DNA of 64,000 bases, taken from assembly GCA_041665385.1 (NCBI GenBank), contig JBAYIX010000003.1, forward strand, positions 13,128-77,127, given 5' to 3'. This document shows positions 3,711 to 63,927 of the stretch, one piece after another (within the stretch, counting starts at the first letter, position 1; each line of letters begins with the position of its first letter). Both the position numbers and the translations under genes were made by a program. The notes under the pieces are model-generated. The model saw only the letters and a list, made by a program, of their open reading frames with translations. It was not told where the DNA came from and did not search any database. This DNA comes from Minisyncoccota bacterium. GTDB taxonomy: Bacteria > Patescibacteriota > Minisyncoccia > Phycocordibacterales > PALSA-1337.

Positions 3711-5112
3711 TATTTTGTCAAAAAAGAACAATCAAAAAGGTATAATTTTGATAGACATTTTGATGGCACTATCTTTGGCTGCTCTAGTTCTCATCTCACT
3801 CGGTATTATTACAGAAAATGCGCATAGTGTTTTTGTGCGGGCAAAGGAAAGGAATAAACTATTGGATGAATATCGAAACAGCAGTTCGATAGTCTATGTT
3901 TCGAAAAGAAAATACGGAAATAATCTGATGGAAAGTCAGATAAGTGTTTCGAATGCTTCTGGTACCGATAGTACCTCACGTTTCATTCAATTGGTAAATT
4001 TTACTTCTGTTAACAGTTTGGAATCCTCCCAGAATGCGGATCTATCAGGGTCACCTCTATGTACACCCGACTTTTTTCGCTCAAATGTCGTCGGTTCGTA
4101 TCAGCGAGAGGGTTCATATATTCCCCTGATTCGCGAGATAGTTTTGCCTGTGATTCCTGGCATACCACTCACAGACCTTGAAGTCAGAAATTCTGTGGCA
4201 TACATTTCTGCAGATTCCTCGTCTGCGTCCGATCCGGACTTGTATATTTTTGATCTGAAAGGCGGAGGAAATCCTACTTTGTTATCTTCTATAAATACAG
4301 GTCCAGGAATATCCTCTTTTGTAATATCCGGCAAAAGAGTATATGCGGCGGCACGTAGCACGGCGGCGGAGCTTCATATTATTCGCTTAGACAGCCTAAC
4401 AAGTCCGACATTGGAAAATAAATACCGATTACTGTTACCTTATGCTACAGCCACAGCCCCTTTTGGGAGCTCGATATTTATAAACAATAAGTACATATTT
4501 ATTGGTACGGAAAAATGGGATGGCGAAGAATTTGCGGTGCTCGATGTCCAAAATTCCATAAATATAACCAAACTATCCGGTTGGGAAACGAATAGCAAGA
4601 TAAACAGCGTATATTATTCTGACGGCTTTATCTACCTTGCCAGTTCGGATCAGAAACAACTCCGAGTTTTGAAGATTGATGAACAAAGGAATATCACTGA
4701 GGTTGGCAGTTTTTCCCCGAGTGGTTGGCAAAGGCAAGAAGGTAAAAACGTATCTATATTCGAAGACGGTGTGTCTTTTACTCGCACATCCGGCGGTTTC
4801 GATTTGGTTTCGGACCATGAACTATTTAGCTTCGCTTCTACCTCCAGTACAACGCTTTCTTTTCCGGTAAGCATCAATATTCCAGGTGGAGTCTACGGAG
4901 CTGTACAAGATCGCTACAATACATATGCCTCGACTCGAGATATAAACCGTGAGTTTCGGATATTCCGGTCCTTGCCGTCAGAAGGTTCACAATTTGCTTC
5001 TAGTACGTCATATTCCTTGCCCATTGCGCCGCAGTCAATGACTTGTGACAACGACAAAATTTATATTCTTTCTCACTCTTCACCCACGATATATGAAATC
5101 ACTTTCCAATAG
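3682..5112 (+). CDS. large prepilin-like protein (pseudopilin/pilus-associated, 476 aa)
   Basis: N-terminus KKNNQKG|IILIDILMALSLAALVLISLGII is a class III signal with Asp at +5. Long Ser/Thr-rich C-terminal region, possibly beta-propeller-like. Confidence 0.5.
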   Translation: MTFQRSYNTNILSKKNNQKGIILIDILMALSLAALVLISLGIITENAHSVFVRAKERNKLLDEYRNSSSIVYVSKRKYGNNLMESQISVSNASGTDSTSRFIQLVNFTSVNSLESSQNADLSGSPLCTPDFFRSNVVGSYQREGSYIPLIREIVLPVIPGIPLTDLEVRNSVAYISADSSSASDPDLYIFDLKGGGNPTLLSSINTGPGISSFVISGKRVYAAARSTAAELHIIRLDSLTSPTLENKYRLLLPYATATAPFGSSIFINNKYIFIGTEKWDGEEFAVLDVQNSINITKLSGWETNSKINSVYYSDGFIYLASSDQKQLRVLKIDEQRNITEVGSFSPSGWQRQEGKNVSIFEDGVSFTRTSGGFDLVSDHELFSFASTSSTTLSFPVSINIPGGVYGAVQDRYNTYASTRDINREFRIFRSLPSEGSQFASSTSYSLPIAPQSMTCDNDKIYILSHSSPTIYEITFQ

Positions 5113-7992: not shown

Positions 7993-9894
7993 TTAGACTT
8001 CTAGCATCTTTAATATCGCACTGATCTTCATAGTTGCGACGCCTATCACAGTATCTGCTGCACCATAGTACATGTATGCTGTCTGTCCGCGGACCACGAG
8101 TCCGCAAGGGAAGACAACGTGAGGAACGATACCCTTGTGTTCGTATTCTGTCTCGGGTTCGAATAATGGAATGGCCGTACGAGCCTTGATGATGGTAGGA
8201 TCTTCGAGATCTAGAAGTACAGCGCCTACTCTGTATGTTGTGCTCCAGGAAACACCGTGATATAGGAGCAACCAGCCATGCTTTGTCTTTACTGGTGGGG
8301 AAGCTATACCTACTTTGCCACCATCCCACATACCACGTCTCGGTCCGAGTATCTCTATGCATTCATCTATATATTCCTTTGTAAAGTCGAGAGAATTCAG
8401 AAAGTCTGCGCATATACTCTCGTTCACTCTATGGAAAACCATATATTTGCCATTCACTGTTTCTGGGAGGAAAGTCGAATCCTTATTTGGGACATTTTGG
8501 GGAGTGATGAGTCTGGGTTCTGACCAGGCACTCCATTTCTTTGCCAGGAAATCCTTCTTACTAATGTCTGTGACTGCTACACGGGGAACACTACCGTCAT
8601 ATGCAGTATATGACATGTATAATCTGTCTCCTATCTCTACTATGCGCGGGTCTTCGCAACCGTAGTTGGTTCCGGAGTCATTCCTTTCGAAGCTTGCTCT
8701 TGCAAAATATACAGGTTTCTCACTGCGCTCATCTAGAGAGAGTCCATCGCGAGATCGAGCGTATCCAAAAGCAGAAATATTTGTATCAGAAACTGCACGA
8801 TAAAAAATGTGCACATCATCACCGACTTCTATGGCGGCGGGATTGAGAGTGCCTCGTGCCTCCCAGGAATATCCGGGACGTGGAGCTATGATGGGGTTGC
8901 CTGGAAAACGGGTGATGACCTTTTTCTCGCTGTCTGTGATACTACGTAATAGGTTCTCGAGAGGAATAGTTGCTACCGCACAATATGTGTCGGTTGCGCC
9001 ATAGTATATCTCCAGTTTGTCATCGTTTATTATAGCCCCAGAAGGGAAGATAACATTTGGTACCTGGCCGATGAGCTCGTAGTGTGCGTCAGGAACCATA
9101 AATGGACCCTTCGTTCGACCTATGACTTTTCTGGGATTTTTGAGATCGAGCAAAACAACCTCGATACCAAATACGACATGGTCACTGCCATAACGCTGAA
9201 TATGGGAATATACGACGAGCCAACCCTTGTCGGTCTTTACTGGTGCAGCACCGAGCTCCAAATGGTCGTCGGGTAGTCTTCGGATATTGATCTTGTGGGA
9301 CTCCATCTGATCATGCCATCCCTTCCAATATTTTTCGGACCACATGTCCTCCTCCTTTTCAAATTCAGCATAACAGATGTCCGAAGGCGGATTGTCAGTA
9401 TTGACTGTTAGGAGAACGGCGAACTTTCCGTTTATTTTTTCTGGAAACATCGCAATGCCTTTGGAGTTGAAGGGTGTTACTTGGTGCTTCTCCGTTATTG
9501 TATTCAGGTCGTCGCTTATGGCGACTGCCGTACGGATATTTTCTGATGAGAAAGGGTAGCCACCGAGACCAGTATAAAAGATATAGTATTTTCCATCGAG
9601 TTTGGTCACACGTGGATCTTCACAGCCAAATTTATCATAAGGCATATCGGGCTTTACTAGGACTGCGCGGTCTATGTACATGCCCTCCTTTTTGGATTTC
9701 TTTGCGCGGGCGATCACGGACATGCGGATGTGGGGTTCGCGCAGGAGTTGTGGTTCGGACATTGCGCGATAAACAAGGTAGAAATCTTTGTTATGTATGA
9801 CTGGACAGCCGTTGAATGCGGCTGCTGCTTCCCAGGGATGGTTCCTAGTCGGAGAGAGGATGGGATTTTGTTCGGAGCGTTTGAGTGTAAACAT
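7993..9894 (-). CDS. tandem GH130/DUF377 glycoside phosphorylase-like protein (two beta-propeller domains)
   Basis: Two repeats each carrying GCEDPR(V/I) ... Y(Y/M)(F/S)YT motifs characteristic of the GH130 beta-1,4-mannoside phosphorylase fold. Start set at the in-frame ATG at 9894. Confidence 0.7.
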   Translation of the reverse strand: MFTLKRSEQNPILSPTRNHPWEAAAAFNGCPVIHNKDFYLVYRAMSEPQLLREPHIRMSVIARAKKSKKEGMYIDRAVLVKPDMPYDKFGCEDPRVTKLDGKYYIFYTGLGGYPFSSENIRTAVAISDDLNTITEKHQVTPFNSKGIAMFPEKINGKFAVLLTVNTDNPPSDICYAEFEKEEDMWSEKYWKGWHDQMESHKINIRRLPDDHLELGAAPVKTDKGWLVVYSHIQRYGSDHVVFGIEVVLLDLKNPRKVIGRTKGPFMVPDAHYELIGQVPNVIFPSGAIINDDKLEIYYGATDTYCAVATIPLENLLRSITDSEKKVITRFPGNPIIAPRPGYSWEARGTLNPAAIEVGDDVHIFYRAVSDTNISAFGYARSRDGLSLDERSEKPVYFARASFERNDSGTNYGCEDPRIVEIGDRLYMSYTAYDGSVPRVAVTDISKKDFLAKKWSAWSEPRLITPQNVPNKDSTFLPETVNGKYMVFHRVNESICADFLNSLDFTKEYIDECIEILGPRRGMWDGGKVGIASPPVKTKHGWLLLYHGVSWSTTYRVGAVLLDLEDPTIIKARTAIPLFEPETEYEHKGIVPHVVFPCGLVVRGQTAYMYYGAADTVIGVATMKISAILKMLEV

Positions 9895-60168: not shown

Positions 60169-60175
60169 AATAGAA

Positions 60176-60279
60176 AACTGGGGCACACACATGTTTTTTC
60201 ATGAAAAGTGAGAAGATGTGCAGGGTCAACGTTCGAGGCAGTTCTACTTTTCATAAAAAAACATGTGTGTGCCCCAGTT
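60176..60279. repeat. 34-bp inverted repeat (one mismatch) with a 36-nt loop carrying TGTGCAGGGTC, 10 nt upstream of tRNA-Ala
   Basis: Arms 60176-60209 / 60246-60279. The loop gagaagaTGTGCAGGGTCaacgttcgagg shares an 11-mer with the loop of the 17350 hairpin. Confidence 0.8.
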
Positions 60280-60288
60280 TTCTCTCGC

Positions 60289-60359
60289 GGGCTCATAGTA
60301 AAATGGTATTATACGGCATTCGCATTGCCGAGGTCCGGGTCCGATTCCCGGTGAGTCCA
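60289..60359 (+). tRNA. tRNA-Ala (anticodon CGC)
   Basis: Acceptor GGGCTCA/TGAGTCC with G3:U70. Anticodon stem CGGCA/TGCCG, loop TTCGCAT. T-arm CCGGG-TCCGATT-CCCGG. Discriminator A. 71 nt. Confidence 0.8.
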
Positions 60360-60438
60360 CAAAAATAAGGAGCACACGCAGTGTGCGACTATATTTTTGT
60401 GGATGCCGGCGCCGTAGCGCCGGCGCCACATTTTTGTG
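60360..60438 (+). repeat. tRNA-Ala 3' trailer repeat (copy L) containing a GC-hairpin terminator
   Basis: caaaaataaggagcacacgcagtgtgcgactatatttttgtggat-GCCGGCGC-CGTA-GCGCCGGC-gccacaTTTTTgtg. Near-identical inverted copy at 61730-61801. Confidence 0.8.
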
Positions 60439-60690
60439 TCCCACGCTACGCTCTGGATCTTCGAGATGCCGGCGCCACAGCTTCGCTCATATCGGTGCTA
60501 CACGGTGTGTGTAATAAAAAAAGCAGCACAATCTTGTGCTGCTCCGGATTTCTCTTTTTTCTTTTTCTACTTCCTCAACGTGAGCCGGAATCGTGAGCGT
60601 GTTTTTGAGTCACGCATGCGATTCCTCACATCACCGTCGGCGATGGCGACGTTTGGTTTCGTTGGATCGTGTGACACTGAGGTGTTAAGA

Positions 60691-60975
60691 ATGAATGCTA
60701 GACCAGCAATATCACCGACGCCCAGAGTCTTTGTGCTCGTTATGATCGTTTTCATCAGTATTCTTACTATTTGGGGTCTGCATATATGCTACGATTATTT
60801 ATGTGCATTGTCAAACAAAAAACCATCTCATGGATGGTTTTTTGTTTGCTTACTTGGTGCAACCGCACTGAGCACATTTCTCACTCTTCTCGTGTTCGTG
60901 CCCGCAGTCAGGACAAGTTCTTTTTTCATCCATGGTATTATTTTACAAGTTAATGCTCATAATACGACCATGTAA
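60691..60975 (+). CDS. small membrane protein (94 aa)
   Basis: In-frame ATG at 60691 within ORF 60436..60975. Two to three TM helices. Lies between the trailer repeats. Confidence 0.3.
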   Translation: MNARPAISPTPRVFVLVMIVFISILTIWGLHICYDYLCALSNKKPSHGWFFVCLLGATALSTFLTLLVFVPAVRTSSFFIHGIILQVNAHNTTM

Positions 60976-61167
60976 GTATAATAGTTTTTGTGCCTACTTA
61001 CCATGTTAGTACCTGTGGAGGAGGGGGTTTGGTGCAGGGGAGTTCGTTATGAATAGATATTTAAAGCCGGTTATTCACAAAGGAACCAAATTTCCTTGAC
61101 AGAGGTACTGAAAAAAGCATATACTATCACTGTATCAATACGGGAAAGCACTTCTTAAGGTTCGTCC

Positions 61168-61674
61168 TTAAGCGGTGCTTTTCTTTTTTATATACTCGAT
61201 CTTCTCCCTGAGGTCATCTACATACTGGATCTTCTCAAGGGCTGAGTGAGTAAGTAGGCCAGAACAAAATTTTCTGTTAGTACTCAGCACAATCTCCAGT
61301 TTGTTATTTGCATACAGATGTTCTACAAGAGAATAGAAATCGCCATCATTTGAAACAATTATAGCTTTGTCGTAGTCGTTCCACTCGATCATTGCTCGTA
61401 ATACAATGTCGGCATCGACATTTCCTTTAATCTTACCATCAACATCTGAGATAGTAGGTTTGAATCTAATAATAAAACCGGATTCCTGAAGTTTGTCATA
61501 CAAACTTTGGTTTAAAGCAACAAAACCTATAAACATGTATGCTTTTTCGACATTATATTTTTCGCACAAGTATGTGTTAAATTTCTTGTAGTCAATTTTC
61601 CAGCCAAGCTCTTGAACGCCAAGATTTAGGTTTTGGCTGTCAATAAAAGCGTAATTTTTCATGATTGAATTCAT
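61168..61674 (-). CDS. NYN-domain (LabA-like, PIN-fold) protein
   Basis: IDSQNL ... GNVDADIVLRAM ... IVSNDGDF acidic motifs of the NYN domain. 168 aa. Confidence 0.75.
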   Translation of the reverse strand: MNSIMKNYAFIDSQNLNLGVQELGWKIDYKKFNTYLCEKYNVEKAYMFIGFVALNQSLYDKLQESGFIIRFKPTISDVDGKIKGNVDADIVLRAMIEWNDYDKAIIVSNDGDFYSLVEHLYANNKLEIVLSTNRKFCSGLLTHSALEKIQYVDDLREKIEYIKKKSTA

Positions 61675-61729
61675 TGGCGAATATTGTCTCAGATATATAA
61701 GCCAAATACAACTATTTATCGATTATTTT

Positions 61730-61801
61730 TGTGGCGCCGGCGCTACGGCGCCGGCATCTCACAAAAATATAGTCGCACACTGCGTGTGCTCGTTATTTTT
61801 G
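61730..61801 (-). repeat. tRNA-Ala 3' trailer repeat (copy R, inverted relative to copy L)
   Basis: The reverse complement matches 60360-60430 with two differences (G to C, one extra A). Confidence 0.8.
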
Positions 61802-61874
61802 TGGACCCGAGGAGATTCGAACTCCTGACCTCCTCATTGCAAATGAGGCGCTCTACCAACTAAGCTACGGGCCC
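61802..61874 (-). tRNA. tRNA-Ala (anticodon UGC)
   Basis: GGGCCCGTAGCTTAGTTGGTAGAGCGCCTCATTTGCAATGAGGAGGTCAGGAGTTCGAATCTCCTCGGGTCCA. G3:U70. Anticodon loop TTTGCAA. Confidence 0.85.
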
Positions 61875-61989
61875 ATATTTTTGGGTCTTAGTAGCATAAC
61901 TGAAAACAGCATTTTATTCAACGTTATTGAGAAAAGATAAAAAATATCGTAAGCTATTCAAATCCACGATATTGGGAATATGATAGAAA

Positions 61990-62060
61990 CGGGCTGTAGT
62001 ATAGTGGTAGTATACATCCATGGGGTGGATGCGGTCCGGGTTCGATTCCCGGCAGCCCGA
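61990..62060 (+). tRNA. tRNA-Pro (anticodon GGG)
   Basis: C1:G72 and A73 (Pro identity). Anticodon stem CATCC/GGATG, loop ATGGGGT. T-arm CCGGG-TTCGATT-CCCGG. The D-arm needs two G-U pairs. Confidence 0.65.
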
Positions 62061-62069
62061 CTTCGTTAG

Positions 62070-62142
62070 GGGCCATTAGCTCATTTGGTAGAGCGCACCC
62101 ATGGCATGGGTGAGGTGACCGGTTCGATCCCGGTATGGTCCA
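62070..62142 (+). tRNA. tRNA-Ala (anticodon GGC)
   Basis: GGGCCAT ... G3:U70. D-arm GCTC-ATTTGGTA-GAGC. Anticodon stem CACCC/GGGTG, loop ATGGCAT. T-arm ACCGG-TTCGATC-CCGGT. Confidence 0.8.
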
Positions 62143-62280
62143 CAGATTTCATTTGTTAAGAAAGATCGTCCGTTTACTTGCCAAAGTCTCGTGCCCACTA
62201 TTTCCACCATGGTATTTTGAATTACATCAAAAGCATTCCTATAGCAAACTATTGAATAAAAAAATGATATAATTATTTGC

Positions 62281-63927
62281 ATGAATGAAGAATTCAATAG
62301 AAAAAATACTGTCTCTGATAAGAATGTTTTTCCAGCTCCGGTTATACTAGGTAAAGTAAATACAAACAGATTCTATTTTTACTCAATAATTATAACAGTG
62401 ATTGTGGTTGTTGTAATAGGTGGGTTGTATTTCTACTCATATAGTTCAAAAATAAATGAACAATCAATTACTTTAGAGCATAAACAGAAACTAAATAGAG
62501 TTCCCGACGATTTGGTTTTTTTGCGGGGATTTTGGAACACGAGACAAGAATGGCCGATAAATCAAAGAGTAAGATTTTCAGGTTACCAAGAAAGTCCCTT
62601 AACTAGATTGCGACAGGCATATTGTGAACGGGTAGGTTATGAATACGCTGATTTTGGTGGAGACTGTTTTGTCTATCAATATTATAATTCATACAAAACC
62701 TATTACGATAATTCGGCGGAGTTCACGGTATTCTATCCTTCACTTTGGCAAATAGATTTACAACCTTTGAATTATGGTTTTATAATTGACCCAAAAGTCT
62801 CACTCAGGCGTCAAGGGGCTTCCTGTGCCCTTGTATACGGTCTTGTTGATGAAAATAAACTTTTATCAGCTAGTAACATCTCAACAAGTACGGTAAGTTT
62901 CGGTTATCAAGCATCTGGAAACGTTGCTTCTGAAACAAAAAGATTAAGTAAAATTATTTTATCTTTTGACAGAGAACTCAGTAATGAAGAAAAAGCGGCT
63001 GGTTACACTAACTCAAAAATTGTTGCCATACCACATTTCCCATATAGTTCAAGCCCATTCGGTTTCCTCATAACAAGTGGAGATAAGCAGCCGCTAGTTG
63101 AAGCGTGTGCCGAAGAATTTGACGGCATCCTCGGTGGCAGATCAATATATTATCCATCTGCAAGGTTATCGAACCAATCAAACGGTATTCTGTCGATTCA
63201 AGATGTGTCGTCGTGGTTTGAGAGAGAAGCCGATATTCCGCAAAAAAATATGCTTCTATTTGATAATTTCTCAACAGGGAAAGAGGAGTCAATCGTGTCA
63301 GCAACCTTCTCGAATATTCAAAGAATCTCTGACCCCTTTTTGAGCGGAGGAAAAATATTTTATACGGATGGATCAGCAACTAATACAATAATTAAAACTG
63401 TTGATATTTTAAACGGTGAAAATATGATAGTACCATTATCATATGATGCAACAAAACCAATTCATTCATTCTTCATTAGGGGTGACATATTGTATTACCT
63501 TTCAGGAACATTTTGTAAAGAATATCGTAATAAATGCAAAGATATGAATCTTTTTAGTTACAATATAAAATCAGGAATAAGTGAGAATTTAGCAGGTGGA
63601 ATAATAGCAAGAGACATTGATGGGTTCAGTGCGACGGGAGACTCGCTTATTCTAAGCTGGAGCGATGGCGACGCCGGATGTGCATGGGGTTCATACCAAT
63701 CTTTTACTCTCACAACTAAGGTGGTCAAAGACCTTGGTTCGTATTCATATTGCGAGGGCGATACAGAAGGTACATATACTAAATTCAAAAAACTTGTCGC
63801 TGATTCTGACAGTTTCAGTTATCTAGTCGTCAAAAGCGGTAAAATATTTTCTCCGAGCGGGACGGATACCTATTCTGGGAGAATTTATATTAGAGTCAAT
63901 ACGACAGAATATCCAAAGGATCGGTAA
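62281..63927 (+). CDS. hypothetical membrane-anchored protein (548 aa)
   Basis: N-terminal TM (YFYSIIITVIVVVVIGGLYFY), then a large ectodomain with no recognised motifs. Confidence 0.45.
   Translation: MNEEFNRKNTVSDKNVFPAPVILGKVNTNRFYFYSIIITVIVVVVIGGLYFYSYSSKINEQSITLEHKQKLNRVPDDLVFLRGFWNTRQEWPINQRVRFSGYQESPLTRLRQAYCERVGYEYADFGGDCFVYQYYNSYKTYYDNSAEFTVFYPSLWQIDLQPLNYGFIIDPKVSLRRQGASCALVYGLVDENKLLSASNISTSTVSFGYQASGNVASETKRLSKIILSFDRELSNEEKAAGYTNSKIVAIPHFPYSSSPFGFLITSGDKQPLVEACAEEFDGILGGRSIYYPSARLSNQSNGILSIQDVSSWFEREADIPQKNMLLFDNFSTGKEESIVSATFSNIQRISDPFLSGGKIFYTDGSATNTIIKTVDILNGENMIVPLSYDATKPIHSFFIRGDILYYLSGTFCKEYRNKCKDMNLFSYNIKSGISENLAGGIIARDIDGFSATGDSLILSWSDGDAGCAWGSYQSFTLTTKVVKDLGSYSYCEGDTEGTYTKFKKLVADSDSFSYLVVKSGKIFSPSGTDTYSGRIYIRVNTTEYPKDR

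What the first reader, a model, noticed from the sequence alone, without database searches (positions are those of the whole stretch)
60289..62142. Three tRNA-Ala isoacceptors plus tRNA-Pro, with two convergent tRNA-Ala genes sharing a 76-nt 3' trailer that brackets an NYN-nuclease cassette
Seen directly: tRNA-Ala(CGC) on + at 60289-60359 and tRNA-Ala(UGC) on - at 61802-61874 are different tRNAs. Each is followed in its own transcription direction by essentially the same 76-nt sequence (60360-60430 versus the reverse complement of 61730-61801; 2 differences). That sequence contains the hairpin GCCGGCGC-CGTA-GCGCCGGC. The left copy ends in a T-run, making it a working intrinsic terminator. The right copy lacks the T-run.

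The two copies form a giant inverted repeat around 1.3 kb holding a small membrane protein (60691-60975) and an NYN/PIN-fold gene (61168-61674), separated by a bidirectional terminator. Just outside lie tRNA-Pro(GGG) and a third tRNA-Ala(GGC), so all GCN codons are covered within 2 kb.

Near-identity of the trailers next to non-identical tRNA bodies implies recent duplication, gene conversion, or insertion of a cassette with terminal inverted repeats beside tRNA 3' ends. The arrangement could also allow inversion of the cassette.
Basis: seen in the sequence. Interest (0 to 1): 0.7.

Follow-up and report, generated by a model that had tools for sequence, protein, structure and literature searches.

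The report
Copied tRNA terminator, not cassette ends
Two facing alanine-tRNA genes of an uncultured Patescibacteria bacterium carry the same 72-base hairpin tail because one tRNA's own terminator-like tail was copied next to the other, which is fairly ordinary; the nuclease gene lying between them turns out to be paired everywhere with a small antisense RNA gene that no tool or paper searched here describes.

Summary
The four tRNAs are where stated. A 76/77-nt inverted repeat (60355-60430 versus 61730-61806) differs by 1 substitution and 1 indel and starts at the tRNA 3' ends.

The "cassette with terminal inverted repeats" reading does not hold. Two syntenic relatives (L109, L113) have the same convergent tRNA-Ala(CGC)/tRNA-Ala(UGC) pair without the NYN gene. 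In L109 only tRNA-Ala(CGC) carries an orthologous first hairpin, with two compensatory stem changes. So the left copy is native and the right copy is derived.

The right copy alone is flanked by a 12-nt direct repeat, CCACAAAAATAA. This fits a microhomology-guided templated copy (inferred). In L113 a different trailer follows three tRNAs, so trailer sharing recurs in this clade. Most likely function: an A-tract/GC-hairpin/U-tract terminator or 3'-end-protecting element.

The "membrane protein" ORF is probably the wrong strand. A conserved 27-aa Cys-rich ORF lies on the minus strand (60850-60933).

The NYN gene belongs to a conserved ~620-bp module (61091-61713). The module includes a candidate ~60-nt antisense sRNA gene (61131-61190, +) that is absent from Rfam 15. 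It has a near-consensus promoter and covariation support, and a model found it at 87 NYN gene 3' ends and nowhere else.

The parts
60172..60283 (.). 112-nt near-perfect hairpin (38-nt arms, 97% complementary) between the ddl stop codon and tRNA-Ala(CGC). Specific to this lineage: in L109 the tRNA follows ddl within a few bases, and in L113 it overlaps the ddl end.
   Evidence: I2; z -10.5. Also present in L108.
60289..60360 (+). tRNA-Ala(CGC), no encoded CCA.
60355..60430 (+). Left (native) copy of the shared trailer. Hairpin 1: A-tract CACAAAAATA, inner stem GCACAC-GCA-GTGTGC (60372-60386), U-tract TATTTTTGTG. Hairpin 2: GCCGGCGC-CGTA-GCGCCGGC (60405-60424), followed by CCACATTTTTGTG.
   Evidence: Orthologous hairpin 1 with two compensatory pair changes in L109.
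60463..60481 (+). Degenerate partial repeat of hairpin 2 (GAGATGCCGGCGCCACAGC), with the inner 14 nt missing between the two CCGGCGCC repeats. It suggests local slippage or duplication on the left side.
   Evidence: (D2, D5, I5).
60812..60848 (.). A-tract/hairpin/T-tract terminator (CAAACAAAAAACCATC...GATGGTTTTTTGTTTG) directly after the stop codon of the minus-strand micro-ORF.
   Evidence: I6. Homologous position in L109 and L113.
60850..60933 (-). Conserved 27-aa Cys/His-rich micro-ORF MDEKRTCPDCGHEHEKSEKCAQCGCTK. Its conserved promoter and 5' leader extend to about 60987.
   Evidence: Homologues in L109 (MAEVRTCPDCKHEHNAGEKCQCGCTK) and L113 (MADARTCPDCKHQHESGVKCEKCDCTK). All five Cys and both His residues are kept, with several third-position changes in this frame.
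61091..61713 (-). Conserved NYN module: the DNA block found at 78-83% identity in quite different genomic contexts.
61096..61125 (+). Near-consensus sigma-70-type promoter (TTGACA-18-TATACT, 11 of 12) pointing into the 3' end of the NYN gene.
   Evidence: 51 of 64 loci have at most 2 mismatches at a fixed distance, against 2 of 64 shuffled controls.
61131..61190 (+). Candidate ~60-nt antisense sRNA: a 14-bp covarying hairpin plus T-run. Its 3' strand overlaps the last NYN codons (KKKSTA*).
   Evidence: No Rfam match.
61168..61674 (-). NYN-domain (LabA/DUF88-like, PIN-fold) protein of 168 aa; all candidate catalytic Asp residues are invariant.
   Evidence: PDB 2qip, E 5.7e-11.
61723..61734 (-). 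Second copy of the 12-nt direct repeat CCACAAAAATAA (read on the minus strand). It marks the inner junction of the derived trailer copy, 10 nt from the NYN module boundary. The first copy is at 61793-61804 and overlaps the tRNA 3' end.
   Evidence: (D4).
61730..61806 (-). Right (derived) copy of the trailer. It has the same two hairpins, no T-run after hairpin 2, 1 substitution and a 1-nt insertion relative to the left copy.
61801..61874 (-). tRNA-Ala(UGC). A promoter-like TTGAAT-17-TATGCT lies upstream on the minus strand (read from the sequence).
61990..62061 (+). tRNA-Pro(GGG). It is inverted relative to L109 and L113, where it lies on the same strand as tRNA-Ala(UGC) and upstream of it.
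62070..62143 (+). tRNA-Ala(GGC); its 3' flank (CAGATTTC...) is unrelated to the shared trailer.

Best explanation
The region is an old tRNA cluster of a Patescibacteria genome in which tRNA-Ala(CGC) (+) and tRNA-Ala(UGC) (-) converge. This convergent arrangement is shown by synteny.

tRNA-Ala(CGC) has a native two-hairpin trailer that begins right after the discriminator base. Hairpin 1 has an A-tract, a GC stem and a U-tract. Hairpin 2 is a very GC-rich stem followed by a T-run. I infer that the trailer acts as an intrinsic, partly bidirectional terminator and a 3'-end-protecting structure for a tRNA gene that lacks an encoded CCA.

In this lineage one non-reciprocal event copied about 58 nt of that trailer into the 3' flank of tRNA-Ala(UGC). 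The direction of copying is shown by orthology. The mechanism is inferred. The two flanks already shared GTCCACAAAAATAA. A nascent strand probably switched to the inverted donor 1.4 kb away and switched back at the 5-nt microhomology CCACA. That would leave the 12-nt direct repeat CCACAAAAATAA seen around the right copy only.

The copy sits between the tRNA and a separately acquired, self-contained module made of the NYN nuclease gene and its antisense sRNA gene. There it would insulate the module from read-through from the tRNA promoter (inferred).

The 'giant inverted repeat' is therefore a by-product of convergent tRNA genes with the same tail. It does not mark the ends of a mobile or invertible cassette.
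For: - Ancestral convergent pair: L109/L110 (Ddl 76% identical) and L113/L114 (75%) both have ddl, tRNA-Ala(CGC)+, the small Cys-peptide gene (-), tRNA-Ala(UGC)- and further tRNAs, with no NYN gene.
- Left copy native: the L109 tRNA-Ala(CGC) trailer has identical flanks CAAAAATAAGGAGC...GCGACTATATTTTTGT. Its inner stem is changed from GCACAC/GTGTGC to GCTCGC/GCGAGC, which is two compensatory pair changes. A second, different GC hairpin follows.
- L109 tRNA-Ala(UGC) has a different trailer, and L113 tRNA-Ala(UGC) has none.
- Junction signature: the 12-nt direct repeat occurs only at the right copy, and identity ends at CCACA.
- Recurrence: in L113 another ~50-nt hairpin trailer follows tRNA-Ala(CGC), tRNA-Ala(GGC) and tRNA-Val(CAC), each starting after the discriminator.
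- Terminator-like design: 13 terminator-like sites in the 3.5-kb region against 2.5 expected, including both trailer hairpins. Fold z-scores are -8.1 and -5.7. The same A-tract/GC stem/U-tract design follows tRNA-Ala(UGC) in L005 and L109.
- NYN module independent of the trailer: L097 has tRNA-Ala(UGC), 47 nt and then NYN, with no insert. The conserved block is 61091-61713.
Against: - Orthology of the left trailer rests on one outgroup species (L109). L113 has a different trailer at that tRNA.
- Only about 72 kb of one genome could be searched for further copies. The metagenome scan is not exhaustive: it missed L108, which holds the exact 20-mer queried.
- The U-tracts start 5 nt after the GC stems, which is suboptimal for intrinsic termination, and the right hairpin 2 has no U-tract. 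No expression data exist.
- Template switching is inferred from junction microhomology alone. The assumed pre-insertion flank (CAAAAATAATCG...) is not observed in any relative.
- In L005, L007 and L022, direct repeats of 12-24 nt of the tRNA 3' end flank short structured inserts. In L005 they also flank the NYN module. That pattern looks like site-specific integration and could apply here as well.
Confidence: 0.6

Rival explanations
1. Site-specific integration. The NYN module, perhaps carrying the trailer with it, is an integrative cassette that recombines at tRNA 3' ends through a short core (GTCCAC/CCACA). The trailer copy was picked up by imprecise excision from a former site behind tRNA-Ala(CGC) and delivered to tRNA-Ala(UGC).
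For: - The NYN gene lies directly downstream of, and co-oriented with, different tRNAs in its closest relatives. These are Ala-UGC (window, L005, L097), Gly-CCC (L007) and Arg-CCG (L098), plus Tyr and Ser in 5 of 80 species loci.
- L005 holds four direct copies of the tRNA-Ala 3' 19-mer (5508, 5661, 6734, 9409). They delimit cassettes, and one cassette is exactly the NYN module.
- L007 and L022 also duplicate the tRNA 3' end.
- A CCAC(C/A)AAA box precedes the NYN promoter in both the window and L010.
Against: - No integrase or other recombinase is called in the window region or in any of these loci.
- In the window no tRNA 3'-end remnant exists on the far side of the module. The repeats there are inverted, not direct.
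- 75 of 80 species loci have no tRNA directly upstream of NYN.
- The left trailer is vertically inherited.
Confidence: 0.2
2. The 72-nt element is a miniature transposable element (MITE or PATE-like) that targets the 3' end of tRNA-Ala genes.
For: - It has internal inverted repeats (CACAAAAATA / TATTTTTGTG).
- Both copies start exactly at the tRNA end.
- The right copy is flanked by a 12-nt direct repeat.
Against: - Only two copies occur in about 72 kb, and other tRNAs lack it.
- The left copy has no flanking duplication.
- Hairpin 1 is present at the orthologous site of a genome with only 76% Ddl identity. There its flanks are conserved and its stem covaries, which is the behaviour of a constrained resident element and not of a recent insertion.
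- No transposase gene lies nearby.
Confidence: 0.05
3. The inverted repeats are the crossover sites of an invertible DNA segment that swaps which tRNA-Ala promoter reads into NYN.
For: The two 76/77-nt inverted repeats are 97% identical and 1.3 kb apart, with uninterrupted identities of 32 and 29 nt. In either orientation each tRNA would be followed by a co-oriented gene.
Against: - No invertase gene is called within about 10 kb.
- Three independent assemblies show the same orientation: the ENA contig, JGI L108 and Logan L002.
- NYN has its own conserved promoter.
- The repeats are explained by the convergent tRNAs.
Confidence: 0.03
4. The trailer is kept in two copies because it is itself a functional RNA released from the tRNA precursor. 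It would be a 3'-external-transcribed-spacer sRNA or an rtT-like product and not merely a terminator.
For: - The fold is strong and conserved.
- The flanks of hairpin 1 are more conserved between the window and L109 than expected for intergenic DNA at that divergence.
- It starts exactly at the RNase Z-type cleavage site of a tRNA without encoded CCA (sequence).
Against: - No Rfam match.
- No significant complementarity to the NYN sRNA, the NYN leader or the Cys-peptide leader (|z| below 1.3).
- Hairpin 2 is not conserved in L109, and the whole trailer is replaced in L113.
Confidence: 0.1

Closest known systems
Rho-independent (bidirectional) terminators after tRNA genes and between convergent genes
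   Same: A-tract, GC-rich stem-loop and U-tract placed directly after the tRNA. The same design follows tRNA-Ala(UGC) in L005 and L109. The scan flags both trailer hairpins.
   Different: Two stacked hairpins. The U-tract is offset by 5 nt. The basal stem includes the last tRNA bases. The right copy of hairpin 2 lacks a U-tract. Termination has not been tested.
E. coli tyrT operon repeats and rtT RNA (repeats downstream of tRNA-Tyr that each contain part of the tRNA 3' end; own knowledge, Rfam family RtT)
   Same: Structured repeated sequence immediately 3' of a tRNA gene, with short duplications of the tRNA 3' end. Seen in the window right copy and in L005, L007 and L022.
   Different: No sequence or Rfam similarity. 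Here the copies follow different tRNAs, in inverted orientation, rather than forming a tandem array behind one tRNA.
Short-range template-switch mutations that create inverted copies (for example PMC7954356)
   Same: An inverted copy of nearby sequence inserted with microhomology at both junctions (14 nt and 5 nt). The donor is left intact.
   Different: Inferred from a single event. The donor-recipient distance is 1.4 kb. There is no polymorphism data.
tRNA-gene-targeted genomic islands (integrase att sites formed by the tRNA 3' end)
   Same: Relatives show direct repeats of the tRNA 3' end around the NYN module and other cassettes (L005).
   Different: No integrase. In the window the repeats are inverted and consist almost entirely of trailer, not tRNA.
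Type I toxin-antitoxin pairs with 3'-overlapping antisense RNA (B. subtilis txpA/RatA, bsrG/SR4; own knowledge). This comparison concerns the NYN/sRNA module.
   Same: A convergent small RNA gene with its own strong promoter and terminator overlaps the 3' end of the protein gene. The pair forms a compact self-contained module with patchy, context-independent distribution.
   Different: The protein is a 168-aa NYN nuclease, not a small membrane peptide. Toxicity is untested. The conserved loop and 5' tail of the RNA lie outside the coding overlap, which hints at protein binding (type III-like) rather than pure antisense action.

Membership tests
Intrinsic (Rho-independent) terminator | GC-rich stem-loop at the end of a transcription unit | tested here: met
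   Hairpin 1 has 6 GC-rich pairs plus an A/U extension. Hairpin 2 has 8-9 pairs, 8 of them G-C. Both follow the tRNA directly.
Intrinsic (Rho-independent) terminator | U-tract immediately (0-2 nt) after the stem | tested here: inconclusive
   The T-runs begin 5 nt after the inner stem of hairpin 1 (both copies) and after hairpin 2 (left copy). The right hairpin 2 has none.
Intrinsic (Rho-independent) terminator | Transcripts end there | not testable with these tools
   No RNA data are available for this uncultured organism.
MITE / non-autonomous transposon | Many dispersed copies in the genome | tested here: not met
   Two full copies and one fragment in about 72 kb. The rest of the genome is not available.
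MITE / non-autonomous transposon | Target-site duplication at every copy | tested here: not met
   A 12-nt direct repeat occurs at the right copy only.
Integrase-mediated island at a tRNA gene | Direct repeats of the tRNA 3' end at both island ends | tested here: not met
   In the window the repeats are inverted and no tRNA 3'-end remnant lies in 60361-61800. The feature is met in relative L005.
Integrase-mediated island at a tRNA gene | Integrase or recombinase gene in the island | tested here: not met
   No recombinase Pfam family appears among the called genes within about 10 kb. Pfam finds nothing for the small ORFs.
Invertible DNA switch | Both orientations present in the population, with an invertase nearby | tested here: not met
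   One orientation in three assemblies and no invertase gene. Raw reads were not examined.
NYN domain, Pfam PF01936 (LabA/COG1432-like) | Match above the Pfam gathering score, with conserved acidic active-site residues | tested here: met
   58.6 bits against a cutoff of 24.2, E 1.3e-15. D12, D87, D89, D110 and D112 are invariant in 23 sequences. Nearest solved structure is 2qip, of unknown function.
Type I toxin-antitoxin system (NYN/sRNA module) | Cis-encoded antisense RNA overlapping the toxin mRNA | tested here: inconclusive
   The promoter, covarying hairpin, T-run and strand bias all indicate an antisense transcript. Transcription has not been observed.
Type I toxin-antitoxin system (NYN/sRNA module) | Toxin is a small (under 60 aa) hydrophobic peptide | tested here: not met
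   The protein is a 168-aa soluble PIN-fold nuclease.
Any Rfam 15 RNA family (trailer and sRNA) | Covariance-model match | tested here: not met
   Only tRNA passes the gathering score. Nothing overlaps the trailers or 61131-61190 at E up to 1. Nothing matches in six related loci.

The most novel reading that the evidence does not exclude
The most novel reading concerns the NYN gene between the repeats, not the repeats. A 168-aa NYN nuclease and a ~60-nt structured antisense sRNA would form a two-component unit. The sRNA has its own near-consensus promoter, and its terminator hairpin overlaps the NYN stop codon.

The unit is widespread, self-contained and apparently horizontally moving. It is found in Patescibacteria and also in MAGs labelled Omnitrophota, Elusimicrobia, Chloroflexota and others. 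It would work like a toxin-antitoxin or self-regulating nuclease module with an RNA partner, and it tends to settle just 3' of tRNA genes.

As far as Rfam 15 and the paper searches run here show, the RNA family has not been described.
Probability: 0.45. Interest if true: 0.7.

Novelty: new member of a known kind. Interest (0 to 1): 0.4.

Why it matters
The trailer itself matters little. It shows that in these tiny genomes tRNA 3' flanks are exchanged or copied between tRNA genes. It also shows that a striking inverted repeat can be a by-product of gene orientation, which is a caution for scans that look for 'cassettes with terminal inverted repeats'.

The useful by-products are the following:
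- A corrected gene model: a conserved 27-aa Cys-rich peptide on the minus strand replaces the proposed membrane protein.
- Evidence that the tRNA-Ala locus is a hot spot for insertion and rearrangement in this clade.
- A testable new RNA family strictly coupled to a very conserved NYN nuclease whose function is unknown. NYN/LabA proteins have been suspected since 2006 of acting on tRNA or rRNA, but functional studies are lacking (PMC5499597). A dedicated RNA partner gives a concrete experimental handle.

Tried and rejected
- Searching for the trailer elsewhere. There are no further copies in the window or fetched flanks and none in viral contigs.
- The JGI metagenome scan with a 20-mer from hairpin 1 returned nine unrelated integron-attC-like sites that share the 20-mer by chance. 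The scan is not exhaustive: JGI contig L108 holds the exact 20-mer but was not returned. I draw no conclusion from that null result.
- Reading the GC-rich inserts of L005 and L007 as introns or tRNA mimics. The first tRNA copy is complete in both. The inserts are too small for group I introns, and the Patescibacteria tRNA-intron paper (PMC13011429) describes nothing like them.
- A 59-nt repeat in L005 (5 copies), considered as an attC-like recombination site. It always sits just upstream of -35 boxes and is confined to L005 and L010. It looks like a promoter-upstream or regulatory repeat and was not pursued.
- tRNA 3'-end remnants flanking the NYN module in the window: none found.
- Base-pairing between the trailers and the NYN sRNA or nearby leaders: not above shuffled controls.
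- NYN as a known defence or phage gene. There is only a weak PADLOC NYN match (E 2.7e-6), a sub-threshold TIGR00288 match, no phage hits, and at most 35% identity on rhizobial plasmids.
- Literature searches for NYN with antisense RNA or antitoxin found nothing relevant.
Full report
**Source and setting.** The window is part of a 122-kb metagenomic contig (ENA ERZ27249449, k141_791314). The organism belongs to the Patescibacteria (CPR). The closest named relatives of its proteins are Patescibacteria/Paceibacterota MAGs. The finding lies downstream of uvrC and ddl.

**Checking the observation.** ARAGORN and Rfam agree on four tRNAs:
- tRNA-Ala(CGC), + strand, 60289-60360
- tRNA-Ala(UGC), - strand, 61801-61874
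- tRNA-Pro(GGG), + strand, 61990-62061
- tRNA-Ala(GGC), + strand, 62070-62143

None encodes CCA, and all three tRNA-Ala carry G3:U70. The two convergent tRNA-Ala genes are each followed, in their own direction, by the same sequence. This is 60355-60430 versus the reverse complement of 61730-61806. It starts with the shared last five tRNA bases, GTCCA, and differs by one substitution and one 1-nt indel.

The trailer folds into two hairpins (z -8.1 and -5.7). Hairpin 1 is CACAAAAATA..GCACAC-GCA-GTGTGC..TATTTTTGTG. Hairpin 2 is GCCGGCGC-CGTA-GCGCCGGC. After ...GCGCCACA the copies diverge. The left continues TTTTTGTG and the right continues AAAATAA.

No other full copy occurs in the window or in about 7.7 kb beyond its right end. 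The tRNA-Ser, tRNA-Pro, tRNA-Ala(GGC), tRNA-Pro(CGG) and tRNA-Val genes of this genome lack the trailer. A degenerate fragment of hairpin 2 lies at 60463-60481.

**What relatives show.** Homologues of Ddl led to two syntenic relatives. L109/L110 has 76% Ddl identity and L113/L114 has 75%. Both carry the following genes in order:
- ddl
- tRNA-Ala(CGC), + strand
- a short spacer
- tRNA-Ala(UGC), - strand
- tRNA-Pro(GGG), - strand
- tRNA-Ala(GGC), + strand
- tRNA-Pro(CGG), + strand
- tRNA-Val(CAC), + strand

The two convergent tRNA-Ala genes are only about 380-400 nt apart there, and there is no NYN gene. The convergent pair is therefore ancestral, and the 1.4-kb interval in the window is an expanded version of it.

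In L109 the tRNA-Ala(CGC) trailer is clearly orthologous to the window's left copy. The flanks CAAAAATAAGGAGC and GCGACTATATTTTTGT are identical. The inner stem has changed from GCACAC/GTGTGC to GCTCGC/GCGAGC, which is two compensatory pair changes. A second GC-rich hairpin of different sequence follows.

L109's tRNA-Ala(UGC) has a different trailer, CCAAAATCAAACCGCC-GTAA-GGCGGTTTTGATTTTGG. This is again an A-tract/GC-stem/U-tract hairpin. L113's tRNA-Ala(UGC) has no hairpin. By parsimony the left copy is native and the right copy is derived.

**How the copy arose (inferred).** The right copy, and only the right copy, is flanked by a 12-nt direct repeat, CCACAAAAATAA (61793-61804 and 61723-61734). 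Suppose the original tRNA-Ala(UGC) flank was ...GTCCACAAAAATAATCG.... It would then have shared 14 nt with the start of the tRNA-Ala(CGC) trailer.

Copying the trailer up to its terminal CCACA and resuming at the CCACA of the original flank reproduces the present sequence, apart from the two later differences. This is the signature of a microhomology-guided templated insertion, by template switch or short-tract conversion from an inverted donor 1.4 kb away. Such events are well documented elsewhere (for example PMC7954356).

The event is not unique in the clade. In L113 a different ~50-nt hairpin trailer, CTGCTTCGCTCC...GGAGCTTCGCAGTGCAGGCAC, follows three tRNAs: Ala-CGC, Ala-GGC and Val-CAC. 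In each case it begins right after the discriminator. Sharing of trailers among neighbouring tRNA genes is therefore a recurrent feature here and is tied to tRNAs, not to a cassette.

**Likely function of the trailer (inferred).** The design is an A-tract, a GC stem and a U-tract placed at the tRNA end. The same design follows tRNA-Ala(UGC) in L005 and L109, and the terminator scan flags both hairpins. Together these point to an intrinsic, partly bidirectional terminator and 3'-end-protecting structure. Such an element makes sense between convergent transcription units.

The U-tracts are offset by 5 nt and the right hairpin 2 has none, so efficiency is uncertain. In the right copy, hairpin 1 would still separate the tRNA promoter from the NYN gene, which has its own conserved promoter. 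I found no complementarity suggesting a trans-acting role.

**What lies between the repeats.** The conserved frame there is on the minus strand. It is a 27-aa Cys/His-rich peptide (60850-60933) with a conserved promoter and leader and a terminator directly after its stop codon. Homologues occur at the same place in L109 and L113, and several third-position changes fall in that frame.

The NYN gene (61168-61674, -) matches PF01936 with invariant acidic residues. It belongs to a very conserved family. More than 4,000 homologues were found, and identity is about 70% across Patescibacteria. Ddl and UvrC of L005 are only about 45-57% identical to the window's, yet NYN is 84% identical.

The DNA block 61091-61713 recurs at 78-83% identity in unrelated contexts. 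In the nearest relatives NYN sits directly behind a tRNA, but a different one each time:
- Ala-UGC in the window, L005 and L097
- Gly-CCC in L007
- Arg-CCG in L098
- a probable tRNA end at the start of contig L096

L097 is an 'empty' version, with the tRNA, 47 nt and then NYN, and no trailer insert. Among 80 species-level loci only five have a co-oriented tRNA within about 250 nt.

In L005 four direct copies of the tRNA-Ala 3' 19-mer delimit small cassettes, one of which is exactly the NYN module. L007 and L022 also duplicate the tRNA 3' end. This is why I keep site-specific integration of the NYN module as the main rival.

In the window itself, however, there is no recombinase and no direct repeat of the tRNA end on the far side of the module. 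Three assemblies of this organism show a single orientation.

**An unexpected partner of NYN.** Just downstream of the NYN stop codon, on the opposite strand, every close relative has three features in a row:
- a near-consensus promoter (TTGACA-17/18-TATAMT)
- a short conserved single-stranded stretch
- a hairpin ending in a T-run

The 3' strand of the hairpin overlaps the last NYN codons. The same arrangement is visible in nearly all of the roughly 85 NYN loci fetched.

The evidence for a conserved RNA structure on 64 distinct sequences is as follows:
- RNAalifold predicts 14 pairs, and 12 of them show compensatory changes.
- 92.4% of cells are paired, against 84.4% in shuffles.
- The covariation score is 0.398 against 0.242.
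- None of 500 shuffles reaches the observed values for these two measures.
- Sliding the partner columns destroys the signal.

About 100 G-U cells against about 10 A-C cells show that the structure is read on the strand antisense to NYN.

The promoter has at most 2 mismatches to the 12 consensus positions in 51 of 64 loci. The figure is 2 of 64 for shuffled controls. The promoter sits at a fixed distance of 33-34 nt from the loop.

A covariance model (R1) found 87 matches in the antisense orientation in 837 kb. By inspection each lies at the 3' end of a NYN gene, including loci and paralogues that were not used to build the model. There were no matches in the NYN-less loci L109, L113 and L115. 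The reverse strand scores about 45 bits lower.

Rfam 15 has no match for this RNA, and I found no paper describing it. In the window the RNA would span about 61131-61190 (+).

The function is not shown. The architecture works like the 3'-overlapping antisense RNAs of type I toxin-antitoxin systems. Two things differ: the protein is a nuclease rather than a small peptide, and the conserved loop and 5' tail lie outside the coding overlap. That hints that the RNA may be bound or cut by NYN.

**Verdict.** The sequence observation is right. Its most eye-catching interpretation, a cassette bracketed by terminal inverted repeats that might invert, is not supported. The repeat is best explained as a native tRNA terminator-like trailer copied once onto the neighbouring convergent tRNA-Ala gene, in a tRNA cluster that is a local hot spot for rearrangement and insertion. 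That is a new instance of known kinds of things and deserves modest interest. The NYN plus antisense-sRNA module found inside the interval is the part worth following up.

Noticed in passing
window 61096-61190 (+), and the 3' end of NYN genes in L005-L098: A conserved near-consensus promoter plus a ~60-nt covarying hairpin RNA with a T-run lies antisense to the 3' end of the NYN gene. It was found at 87 NYN genes and nowhere else in 837 kb. It has no match in Rfam 15.
   Followed up: yes
window 60850-60933 (-), with terminator at 60812-60848; L109 about 9220-9300; L113 about 4240-4323: A conserved 27-aa Cys/His-rich micro-ORF (CPDC...H.H...C..C.C) with its own promoter and terminator lies between the convergent tRNA-Ala genes in three genomes. 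It has no Pfam or NCBIfam match and may be a zinc-binding peptide.
   Followed up: partly
window 60172-60283: A 112-nt almost perfect hairpin (38-nt arms) is inserted between the ddl stop codon and tRNA-Ala(CGC). It is unique in the window and absent from relatives L109 and L113. Its origin and role are unknown.
   Followed up: partly
L113 4038-4082, 4740-4784, 4949-4993: Three different tRNAs (Ala-CGC, Ala-GGC, Val-CAC) of a relative share another ~50-nt hairpin trailer that starts right after the discriminator base. Its core (GCTCC...GGAGC flanked by CTTCG/CGAAG) resembles hairpin 2 of L109 and hairpins seen in L007 and L066, so a wider family of GC-rich intergenic hairpins may exist in Patescibacteria.
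   Followed up: partly
L005 5508-5526, 5661-5679, 6734-6752, 9409-9427: Four direct copies of the 3' 19-mer of tRNA-Ala(UGC) delimit three small cassettes with no integrase among them: a 134-nt GC-rich structured insert, the NYN module, and a methyltransferase/hypothetical/second-NYN block. It looks like tandem accretion at a tRNA att site.
   Followed up: partly
L005 5917, 6620, 7724, 8616, 10873 (59-98 nt each); L010 1168: A repeat (..CTTAGCAAACTGGTTTCAAAATGCGATACTGAAGTCCACCAAA..) sits just upstream of the -35 box of several unrelated genes. It may be a shared regulatory site and is confined to this sub-lineage.
   Followed up: no
window 61990-62061 versus L109 9601-9672 and L113 4524-4595; window 62281-63927: tRNA-Pro(GGG) is inverted in the window genome relative to both relatives. 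In addition, a 548-aa protein gene without Pfam domains splits the ancestral tRNA cluster: tRNA-Pro(CGG) and tRNA-Val lie just beyond the window end at about 64040-64240.
   Followed up: no
L099-L107 (JGI marine metagenome contigs): The 20-mer GCACACGCAGTGTGCGACTA occurs by chance inside a conserved ~100-nt element flanked by GCCTAAC...GTTAGAG/C, which looks like an integron attC site family. It is unrelated to the finding.
   Followed up: no
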